Virus genome (UHGV): UHGV-0157346 | Source of the DNA: a virus | Direction: 5' to 3' (one strand) | DNA: 17,922 bases | Shown: piece by piece, positions 7,017 through 7,289 of the stretch | Position numbering within the stretch: position 1 is the stretch's first letter | How the letters are laid out: each line of letters opens with the position of its first letter | Notes under the pieces: generated by a model | The model's database searches: none | What the model was told of the DNA's origin: nothing | Seen by the model: only the letters and a program-made list of their open reading frames with translations | Translations under genes and position numbers: made by a program

Positions 7017-7289
7017 CTACCTGCCTTGACGAAAGACCTTAAGAACATCGTTAAACTGACTTACGGATATGTCTTCTTTGAGCAGCTTTTCCAGAAATGC
7101 GTTTGGAATGAACGTATATCCCTCCTCTTTTGGTAGAGACGGGATCAACGCCCTCGCCTCAGCCTTCAGAAGCTCAGTTCTGGCAACTTTCACAAAAGAG
7201 ATTTGAGTTCTTTCATCAATGGAACGAAGGAAGCGCAAACGCTTAGCTTCTTTGTGTGTATCAGGTGGATTAAAGCCTTTGTTTCGCAT
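7017..7289 (-). CDS. Hypothetical 90-aa protein between cII and the O-like gene
   Basis: ATG at 7289 with AGGT ribosome-binding site 7 nt upstream (MRNKGFNPPDTHKEAKRLRFLRSIDERTQ...); stop 2 nt before the O-like ATG. The track's 141-aa form would overlap cII. Confidence 0.55.
   Translation of the reverse strand: MRNKGFNPPDTHKEAKRLRFLRSIDERTQISFVKVARTELLKAEARALIPSLPKEEGYTFIPNAFLEKLLKEDISVSQFNDVLKVFRQGR

What the first reader, a model, noticed from the sequence alone, without database searches (positions are those of the whole stretch)
7017..7289. Extra 90-codon gene between cII and the replication initiator
In lambda, O starts a few bases after cII and the gap holds only the oop RNA and its promoter. 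Here a 90-aa ORF with a good ribosome-binding site fills the gap and ends 2 nt before the O-like start. Its 5' end overlaps the oop-like antisense RNA region. It could be a replication accessory factor or an inserted moron in the PR operon.
Basis: partly seen in the sequence, partly recalled or inferred. Interest (0 to 1): 0.5.

Follow-up and report, generated by a model that had tools for sequence, protein, structure and literature searches.

The report
Small conserved gene upstream of O
This is a real, conserved 90-codon early phage gene between the lysogeny regulator cII and the replication initiator; databases already list it as a hypothetical protein, its function is unknown, and its best-conserved part resembles the first third of the initiator's DNA-binding domain.

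Summary
The ORF exists as described, on the minus strand: ATG 7289, stop 7019-7017, and 2 nt before the O-like ATG at 7014. It is a genuine gene. dN/dS is 0.07-0.16 with dS above 1. Length and stop are kept down to 51% identity. It is intact in 80/80 viral contigs and present in 279/5426 complete E. coli genomes. It belongs to PHROG 2519 (unknown function) and is annotated "hypothetical protein". The family is tiny and confined to enterobacterial lambdoid prophages, always in the order cII-orf-O. Residues 55-88 are the most constrained part and resemble positions 6-39 of Phage_rep_O (lambda O residues 26-59). The recognition helix and wing are missing. The N-terminal half is a basic helical hairpin. 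The gene's divergence tracks cII, not the O DNA-binding domain. Phages with a 72-81% identical O domain carry other genes in this slot, so it is a dispensable accessory gene. It is not a classical moron, because it has no promoter or terminator of its own. Its start codon overlaps the -10 of the oop promoter, not the oop RNA. My best guess, at about 0.35, is an initiator-mimicking microprotein that modulates replication initiation. It is ordinary as an observation and mildly interesting as an uncharacterised family.

The parts
7017..7289 (-). orf90 coding sequence (90 aa plus TAG), a member of PHROG 2519
   Evidence: Translation. phrog_2519 at 6e-57 over 1-90/90. dN/dS 0.07-0.16. Homologues of 90-93 aa down to 51% identity.
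7296..7299 (-). Shine-Dalgarno-like AGGT, 6 nt before the ATG (TAGGT here, GAGGT/GGAG in relatives)
   Evidence: Read from the sequence.
7312..7605 (-). cII gene. Its 3' end is identical to lambda and encodes the oop terminator on the other strand.
   Evidence: Pfam Phage_CII 5e-48. DNA alignment to lambda.
7289..7294 (+). -10 hexamer (TATAAT) of the oop-type promoter pO, sharing a base with the orf90 start codon. A weak -35 candidate (TGGATT) lies at 7266-7271.
   Evidence: Same geometry as lambda pO, where CATAAT lies over the O start codon. TATAAT is kept in all homologous loci, including those at 39-53% protein identity.
7301..7369 (+). Predicted oop-like antisense RNA (about 69 nt), with a terminator stem-loop at 7336-7363 followed by a T-run
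   Evidence: Terminator scan. Alignment with lambda oop. Hairpin kept with compensatory changes in 3 of 11 pairs across 9 loci. The transcript itself is inferred, not observed.
7020..7027 (-). AAGGCAGG inside the last codons of orf90, the probable ribosome-binding site of O. Together with the stop lying 2 nt before the O ATG, this suggests translational coupling.
   Evidence: GGCAGGTAGnnATG is kept in all 70-99% homologues. The genes overlap by 4-8 nt in distant loci. Synonymous variation drops in the last 9 codons.
6067..7014 (-). O-like initiator gene. Its N-terminus [10 protein letters not shown] resembles lambda O MTNTAKILNF. It contains 12-bp-period iteron-like repeats at 6457-6599.
   Evidence: Pfam and PHROG. 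Alignment to lambda O. Repeats.
6995..7016 (-). 22 nt at the O start that are 20/22 identical to the lambda O start. On the other strand this is a degenerate copy of lambda pO (CATAAC instead of CATAAT).
   Evidence: Local alignment. Sequence reading.

Best explanation
orf90 is a genuine, dispensable early gene of the PR operon. It is transcribed with cro-cII-O and translated just ahead of, and probably coupled to, the initiator O. Its product is a small basic protein (pI about 10). It has an N-terminal basic helical hairpin, followed by a strand-helix-helix unit that copies the first third of an O/DnaD-type winged helix. It lacks the recognition helix and wing, so it cannot read iterons on its own. 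I infer that it acts as an initiator-mimicking microprotein. In this model the O-like unit, whose motif is conserved across O proteins of different specificities, engages a partner or surface that O itself uses: another O subunit in the origin complex, or a host factor. The basic hairpin would contact nucleic acid. The result would be to tune when or how efficiently replication starts. What is shown: the gene is real, conserved and syntenic, resembles O, and carries the oop promoter in its first codons. What is inferred: translation, coupling to O, the binding partner and the effect on replication.
For: Real gene. dN/dS is 0.07-0.16 with dS of 0.6 to above 2, and third-position changes dominate. 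The length of 90-93 aa is kept to 51% identity. It is intact in 80/80 IMG/VR loci. It is present in 279/5426 complete E. coli genomes. In-frame stops upstream fix the start codon.

Link to the initiator. In every complete locus examined the order is cII-orf-O, including members at 39-53% identity. The stop lies 2 nt before the O ATG, or the genes overlap by 4-8 nt. Of 80 loci found with the O N-domain, 78 carry the whole gene and 2 carry part of it.

Resemblance to O. Residues 55-88 match Phage_rep_O positions 6-39 (E 0.05 for this protein; 16 of 19 family members hit, best 5.2e-5). phrog_678 'O-like' scores E 0.008. BLASTP to lambda O residues 26-59 gives E 5e-4. hhalign against a lambda-O family alignment gives E 4e-4. 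NCBI names two members 'replication protein'. This segment is the most constrained part: all invariant residues lie in it (I61 P62 N63 F79 L83 F86), and the C-half has lower dN/dS than the N-half.

Structure. AF2 gives pLDDT 83.8, with helices 10-23 and 26-51, a short hairpin, and helices 63-71 and 76-86. The net charge of +4 to +10 sits in the N-half of all full-length members.
Confidence: 0.35

Rival explanations
1. orf90 belongs functionally to the cII/oop lysis-lysogeny module. It would be a small basic protein that modulates cII activity or stability, or the action of the oop antisense RNA, rather than replication.
For: Pairwise divergence of orf90 tracks cII (Mantel r 0.88, p 0.002) and not O. 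It lies 19-23 nt after cII in every locus. Its first codons carry the oop promoter. Near-identical copies always keep the cII C-terminal tail and oop segment, even when the rest of cII is a different type. A basic helical hairpin would suit RNA binding.
Against: Co-inheritance may only reflect physical closeness, with a recombination hotspot at the conserved O start. Two very different cII bodies pair with the same orf90. There is no similarity to cIII or any known regulator. The most conserved part is the O-like segment.
Confidence: 0.2
2. orf90 is an accessory host-takeover, anti-defence or exclusion gene with no role in replication or lysogeny, sitting in a hypervariable slot. This is 'moron-like' in the loose sense.
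For: The cII-O slot holds unrelated genes in related phages. Examples are a ParB-HTH protein (265 aa), a Rha/KilAC antirepressor-like protein with a 59-aa ORF, and the 48-aa DUF2740 in Sakai Sp5. Lambda has nothing there. GC content is slightly lower than in the neighbours.
Against: It has no promoter or terminator of its own, so it would be expressed only in lytic or early phases. PADLOC gives only a marginal hit, to the MukE-like JetB model, for this protein alone (E 0.021). Synteny with O persists across deep divergence. This reading leaves the O-like motif unexplained.
Confidence: 0.2
3. orf90 is the stranded 5' end of an ancestral initiator gene, cut off when a new O/ori module recombined in. 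It would be kept only because its DNA carries pO and the ribosome-binding site of O, and the protein itself would have no function.
For: The start codon sits relative to pO and oop exactly where lambda's O start sits. The C-terminal part is O-like. A degenerate second copy of the lambda pO/O start lies at the present O start. Synonymous variation is reduced at both ends.
Against: Purifying selection on the amino-acid sequence acts along the whole gene, including the middle where no DNA element is known (dN/dS 0.03-0.25 in both halves). Length and stop position are kept over dS above 1. No extant initiator has an orf90-like N-terminus. An origin as a fragment is compatible with a present-day function.
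Confidence: 0.1
4. The ORF is a chance open frame and not a gene.
For: CUS-3's original annotation omits it. It is short, and the ribosome-binding site in this window is only moderate.
Against: dN/dS is near 0.1, the codon-position pattern of differences is 15:13:49, length is conserved, and it is intact in 80/80 loci.
Confidence: 0.01

Closest known systems
PHROG 2519 (phage protein family of unknown function), listed as 'hypothetical protein' in GenBank/RefSeq (e.g. WP_241168440.1, JEP4_43 QOC67892.1, UniProt A0A0B1HPY7)
   Same: Full-length match at 6e-57 over 90/90 positions. The exact sequence is already in NCBI. A one-residue variant is on at least 1000 contigs.
   Different: Nothing differs; this is the same family. 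No function is recorded for it.
Lambda O / Pfam Phage_rep_O (PF04492) N-terminal winged-helix domain
   Same: Residues 55-88 (GYTFIPNAFLEKLL..DISVSQFNDVLKVFRQ) align with lambda O 26-59 and profile positions 6-39. This is the strand-helix-helix that opens the domain. The start codon also sits over the pO -10, as the O start does in lambda.
   Different: The protein stops before the recognition helix and wing. It has no linker or helicase-binding C-domain and no iterons in its gene. Its score is below Pfam's threshold. It has 53 unrelated N-terminal residues. A complete O gene follows immediately.
DUF2740 (PF10872), the 48-aa ORF between cII/c1 and the initiator in Sakai Sp5 (ECs_1188). From memory, this corresponds to orf48 of P22.
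   Same: It occupies the same slot, is a small basic protein, and ends at or overlaps the initiator start. By eye it shares an HK..R.RFL.S pattern with orf90 residues 12-23.
   Different: Homology is not supported: there is no Pfam hit among 19 members, and hhalign gives probability 4.5% at E 0.009. It lacks the O-like segment. Its function is also unknown.
Lambda oop RNA and pO promoter arrangement
   Same: An antisense RNA overlaps the cII 3' end, has the same terminator, and has its -10 over the start codon of the gene after cII.
   Different: Here the gene after cII is orf90, not O. The predicted pO start is therefore about 700 bp from the iterons, against 359 bp in lambda. In lambda plasmids, insertions of 6-500 bp between pO and the origin sharply reduced replication (PMC3985674).
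Morons (independently transcribed accessory genes of prophages)
   Same: It is a dispensable gene in a slot whose content varies between related phages.
   Different: It has no flanking promoter or terminator on its strand. It sits inside the early lytic operon, so it is not expected to be expressed from a repressed prophage.

Membership tests
PHROG 2519 | Significant full-length match to the family profile | tested here: met
   E 6e-57, 191 bits, residues 1-90 on profile 1-90/90.
Phage_rep_O (PF04492) / lambda O-type initiators | Score at or above Pfam's gathering cutoff (28.7 bits) | tested here: not met
   14.6 bits, E 0.05. Sixteen of 19 family members hit, but all are weak (best E 5.2e-5).
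Phage_rep_O (PF04492) / lambda O-type initiators | Complete winged helix including recognition helix and wing (profile positions 40-95) | tested here: not met
   Only profile positions 6-39 are covered, and the protein ends 2 residues later. The AF2 model has no further elements.
Phage_rep_O (PF04492) / lambda O-type initiators | Origin iterons within or next to its own gene, and a C-terminal helicase/loader-binding domain | tested here: not met
   The iteron-like repeats lie in the downstream O gene at 6457-6599. orf90 has no C-terminal domain.
DUF2740 (PF10872; P22 orf48-like) | Sequence match to the family | tested here: not met
   No Pfam hit at E<=1 in any of 19 members. hhalign of the two family alignments gives probability 4.5%, E 0.009, over 20 columns.
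DUF2740 (PF10872; P22 orf48-like) | Position between cII/c1 and the initiator gene, abutting the initiator start | tested here: met
   Sakai Sp5 ECs_1187-1189 compared with window 7312-7605 / 7017-7289 / 6067-7014.
Moron | Own promoter upstream and terminator downstream on the coding strand | tested here: not met
   The consensus scan of 6800-8100 finds no minus-strand promoter or terminator flanking 7017-7289. The scan is crude.
Moron | Expression from the repressed prophage | not testable with these tools
   This needs transcriptome or proteome data from a lysogen.
Moron | Base composition different from neighbouring genes | tested here: inconclusive
   GC is 44.0%, against 48.0% (cII) and 49.7% (O). 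The difference is small.
oop-type antisense RNA (for the overlapping element) | Antisense to the cII 3' end, with an intrinsic terminator inside cII and a promoter at the start of the next gene | tested here: met
   The terminator at 7336-7363 is identical to lambda. TATAAT at 7289-7294 is conserved in all loci. The hairpin shows covariation. Rfam has no matching model.
oop-type antisense RNA (for the overlapping element) | A detectable transcript of about 70 nt | not testable with these tools
   This needs a Northern blot, 5' RACE or small-RNA sequencing.

The most novel reading that the evidence does not exclude
orf90 represents an undescribed class of phage 'microprotein': a truncated, non-DNA-binding copy of the opening strand-helix-helix of O/DnaD-type initiators fused to a basic hairpin. 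It would be translated just ahead of the real initiator and regulate origin-complex assembly, or compete for a host factor that O uses. This would be analogous to dominant-negative microproteins of eukaryotic transcription factors. Because it pairs with O proteins of quite different specificity, it would target a feature common to all of them.
Probability: 0.2. Interest if true: 0.6.

Novelty: already known. Interest (0 to 1): 0.3.

Why it matters
As an observation it adds little. The ORF is annotated in dozens of phage records and hundreds of E. coli genomes, and it has a PHROG number. Three things make it worth a modest follow-up.

- It is under strong selection, yet nobody has assigned it a function. 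It sits at the junction of the lysogeny and replication modules of common E. coli prophages. These include P22-like phages of ExPEC/AIEC strains and one group of Stx2a phages.
- Its conserved core looks like a piece of the initiator, which suggests a testable regulatory mechanism.
- Its presence puts the predicted oop promoter about 700 bp from the origin repeats. In lambda plasmids, moving pO by only 6-10 bp impaired replication (PMC3985674). These phages are therefore a natural test of how general that pO-origin geometry is.

Tried and rejected
- **Sequence libraries.** NCBIfam gave no hit. PADLOC gave only JetB at E 0.021 for one member. Pfam gave nothing above threshold.
- **PDB sequence search** with the family profile gave no hit even at E 10.
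- **Exhaustive profile search** of 1.84 billion representatives returned 15 proteins and no full-length initiator. Two large proteins (P0041, P0045) are chance hits of a repeated LPxxxEGYTF motif.
- **Homology to DUF2740/orf48** looked suggestive by eye but was rejected by hhalign.
- **A 19-residue hhalign match** of the orf90 N-terminus to the ParB-HTH protein in the Klebsiella slot (probability 34%) was judged too short to use.
- **The longer 141-aa reading from TTG 7442** was rejected, because diverged homologues have in-frame stops upstream.
- **A frameshift fusion of orf90 to O** was considered. The O frame is +2 relative to orf90, I saw no slippery site, and I did not pursue it.
- **Rfam** has no oop model and gave no meaningful hit in 6900-7700.
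- **Literature searches** for the cII-O junction ORF, DUF2740 and phrog_2519 found no functional study.
- **One-genome-per-species scan** found only two carriers, Scandinavium and Pseudescherichia.

Full report
**Context**

The window is a lambdoid prophage of the P22-like group, closest to CUS-3, JEP4 and Gally. Its early-right operon lies on the minus strand. The layout is as follows.

| Feature | Coordinates | Strand | Evidence |
|---|---|---|---|
| cI | 8044-8676 | + | |
| cro | about 7725-7925 | - | |
| cII | 7312-7605 | - | Pfam Phage_CII 5e-48 |
| ORF in question | 7017-7289 | - | |
| O-like initiator | 6067-7014 | - | Phage_rep_O 3.3e-15 |
| DnaB-type helicase | 3677-6070 | - | |

Region 6950-7620 is 97-98% identical to four complete phage genomes. 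From inside the cII 3' end onward it is about 98-99% identical to some 50 Stx2a phage records.

**Observation**

The ORF is as described: ATG 7289, TAG 7019-7017, 90 codons, with 2 nt before the O ATG at 7014. Lambda has a 32-nt gap with no ORF at this position. Three details need correcting.

- The ribosome-binding site is TAGGT with a 6-nt spacer in this window. Most relatives have GAGGT.
- The coding sequence overlaps the promoter of the oop-like RNA, not the RNA itself.
- The longer frame from TTG 7442 is an artefact. Diverged homologues have in-frame stops 4-42 codons upstream of the ATG.

**Is it a gene?**

Yes.

- Homologues at 70-79% protein identity are all exactly 90 aa and share the same stop.
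- Members at 51-61% identity are 90-93 aa.
- Among five diverged alleles dN/dS is 0.07-0.16, with dS from 0.6 to saturation. Differences fall 15:13:49 by codon position.
- The ORF is intact in all 80 IMG/VR loci retrieved, with 10 protein variants that differ by one to three conservative substitutions.
- It is present in 279 of 5426 complete E. coli genomes, annotated 'hypothetical protein'.
- The exact protein is in NCBI as WP_241168440.1, and a one-residue variant is on at least 1000 contigs.
- It matches PHROG 2519, of unknown function, over its full length at 6e-57.

The feature is therefore real and already catalogued.

**How wide is the family?**

It is narrow. An exhaustive profile search of 1.84 billion cluster representatives returned 15 proteins. 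Two of these are chance hits in large repeat proteins. A one-genome-per-species scan found only a Scandinavium and a Pseudescherichia genome.

In every complete locus examined the order is cII, orf, O-like initiator, then either a DnaB-type helicase or a lambda-P-type loader. The only exceptions I saw are rearranged copies, such as the cro::orf90 fusion described under other observations.

**Anatomy of the protein**

AF2 with 19 sequences gives pLDDT 83.8. The model has helices 10-23 and 26-51, a short hairpin at 54-59, and helices 63-71 and 76-86. The protein is basic, with pI 9.4-10.5 in full-length members. The positive charge lies in the N-terminal half.

Residues 55-88 are the most conserved part. 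All invariant residues lie there (I61, P62, N63, F79, L83, F86), and dN/dS is lower than in the N-half. This segment repeatedly aligns with the beginning of O-type initiators.

| Comparison | Result |
|---|---|
| Phage_rep_O positions 6-39, this protein | E 0.05 |
| Phage_rep_O, 19 family members | 16 hit, best E 5.2e-5 |
| phrog_678 'O-like' | E 0.008 |
| BLASTP to lambda O residues 26-59 | 29% identity, E 5e-4 |
| hhalign to a lambda-O family alignment | E 4e-4, probability 35% |

Each hit is weak, but all place the same segment on the same part of O. The protein ends where the helix-turn-helix and wing of O would begin. It is therefore not an initiator, and it fails Pfam's threshold.

No solved or predicted structure matched convincingly.

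**Relation to oop**

The + strand carries a perfect TATAAT at 7289-7294 that shares a base with the start codon. This mirrors lambda, where the -10 of pO (CATAAT) covers the O start codon. By analogy the RNA starts near G7301 and ends at the lambda-identical terminator (7336-7363 plus T-run).

The TATAAT over the start codon, and a terminator hairpin in the cII 3' end, are present in every homologous locus. This includes loci whose sequence is otherwise different, and 3 of 11 stem pairs show compensatory changes.

Synonymous variation in orf90 is reduced in the first and last nine codons. This fits DNA-level constraints from pO at one end and the O translation start at the other.

At the present O start, 20 of 22 nt are identical to the lambda O start. 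On the other strand this is a degenerate copy of lambda pO (CATAAC).

**Which module does it belong to?**

Across eight diverged loci, orf90 identity tracks cII identity (Mantel r 0.88, p 0.002). It does not track identity of the O N-domain (r 0.21, p 0.18). It is paired with O N-domains as low as 22% identical to this one, and with both DnaB-type and P-type partners.

Among near-identical copies the body of cII can be either of two unrelated types, joined at the TNKKRP/oop-terminator segment. Phages of Klebsiella and Yersinia with a 72-81% identical O N-domain have other genes in the slot. These are a ParB-HTH protein, or a small ORF plus a Rha/KilAC protein. Sakai Sp5 has a 48-aa DUF2740 protein there. 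That protein is not detectably homologous to orf90.

The co-inherited unit is thus the cII tail, oop, pO and orf90. The O modules exchange at the orf90/O boundary, and the gene is dispensable for O function.

**Mechanism**

Nothing shows directly what the protein does. I rank four readings.

1. **Initiator mimic (about 0.35).** The protein acts through the O-like segment, which is conserved among initiators of different specificity. That would explain why it need not co-evolve with a particular O. The basic hairpin would contact nucleic acid. The gene is translated just ahead of O.
2. **Modulator of the cII/oop circuit (about 0.2).** This is supported mainly by co-inheritance, which may be mere linkage.
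3. **Unrelated accessory gene in a variable slot (about 0.2).**
4. **Functionless remnant of an older initiator gene, kept for its DNA signals (about 0.1).** This is contradicted by selection on the amino-acid sequence along the whole gene. An origin as a fragment remains possible.

A strict moron is unlikely, because no promoter or terminator flanks the gene.

**Comparison with the literature**

Searches of the held library found no functional study of this ORF, of DUF2740 or of PHROG 2519. The survey of Stx-phage replication regions by Llarena et al. (PMC8044961) classifies replication types but does not discuss a gene at this junction.

Olszewski et al. (PMC3985674) showed that insertions of 6-500 bp between pO and the lambda origin strongly reduce lambda plasmid replication. 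Here the predicted pO start lies about 700 bp from the iteron-like repeats, against 359 bp in lambda. That makes these phages a natural counter-example or variant worth testing.

From my own memory, not tested here: the lambda O N-terminal sequence TNTAKI is a ClpX recognition signal. The similar [10 protein letters not shown] start of the O-like protein supports use of the ATG at 7014.

**Verdict**

The gene is real, conserved and already catalogued as a hypothetical protein. The function is unknown. Interest is low to moderate.

Noticed in passing
window 3677-6070 (-): The DnaB-type replicative helicase is 797 aa and is interrupted by an intein with LAGLIDADG homing-endonuclease signatures (Pfam LAGLIDADG_3, Hom_end, Hom_end_hint). 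DnaB_C matches in two pieces. The same gene in CUS-3 and JEP4 is only 1377 nt. The 2394-nt form also occurs in Stx2a phage 981509.
   Followed up: partly
window 6457-6599: Two clusters of 12-bp-period repeats (consensus about TCATGTGCGGNT) lie inside the O-like gene. They are presumably the origin iterons, and they encode the [10 protein letters not shown] repeat region of the protein.
   Followed up: partly
window 6995-7016 (and + strand 6985-7025): The O start is 20/22 nt identical to the lambda O start. On the other strand this is a degenerate copy of lambda pO (-10 CATAAC, -35 TCGTAG). The locus therefore has one good pO at the orf90 start and a relic at the O start.
   Followed up: partly
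window 7301-7369 (+) versus 6457-6599: The predicted oop promoter start is about 700 bp from the iteron-like repeats, against 359 bp in lambda. In lambda plasmids, insertions of 6-500 bp between pO and the origin strongly reduced replication (PMC3985674).
   Followed up: partly
window 11151-11209 (+): Full-length Rfam match to the lambda cIII thermoregulator element (RF01804, 88.5 bits). This was the only Rfam family above threshold in the window.
   Followed up: no
L174 1704-2501; L175 1568-2501; L182 3012-3158: The cII-O slot is a variable cargo site. It holds a ParB-HTH protein in Klebsiella phage ST16-OXA48phi5.2, a 59-aa ORF plus a Rha/KilAC protein in Yersinia phage vB_YenM_29.18, and a 48-aa DUF2740 protein in Sakai prophage Sp5. 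Each abuts or overlaps the initiator start.
   Followed up: partly
L179 2570-2728, L180 2154-2312; proteins P0022, P0024, P0030: Rearranged alleles exist. One is a cro::orf90 C-terminal fusion (52 aa) in prophages that have lost cII. One is a frameshifted 79-aa allele on 36 contigs. Others are fusions of the orf90 N-terminus to other sequence, including the helicase C-terminus.
   Followed up: no
IMG/VR loci L014-L093, about 20-320 nt upstream of the orf90 start: Near-identical orf90 copies follow two unrelated cII bodies (a lambda type and a '...HESKISRTDW...' type). The two are joined at the TNKKRP codons, which lie on the oop terminator, so this looks like a recombination boundary.
   Followed up: partly
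window 7300: This window has A where most relatives have C on the + strand (TAGGT instead of GAGGT on the coding strand). The change weakens the orf90 Shine-Dalgarno by one base, and it lies immediately upstream of the predicted oop start.
   Followed up: no
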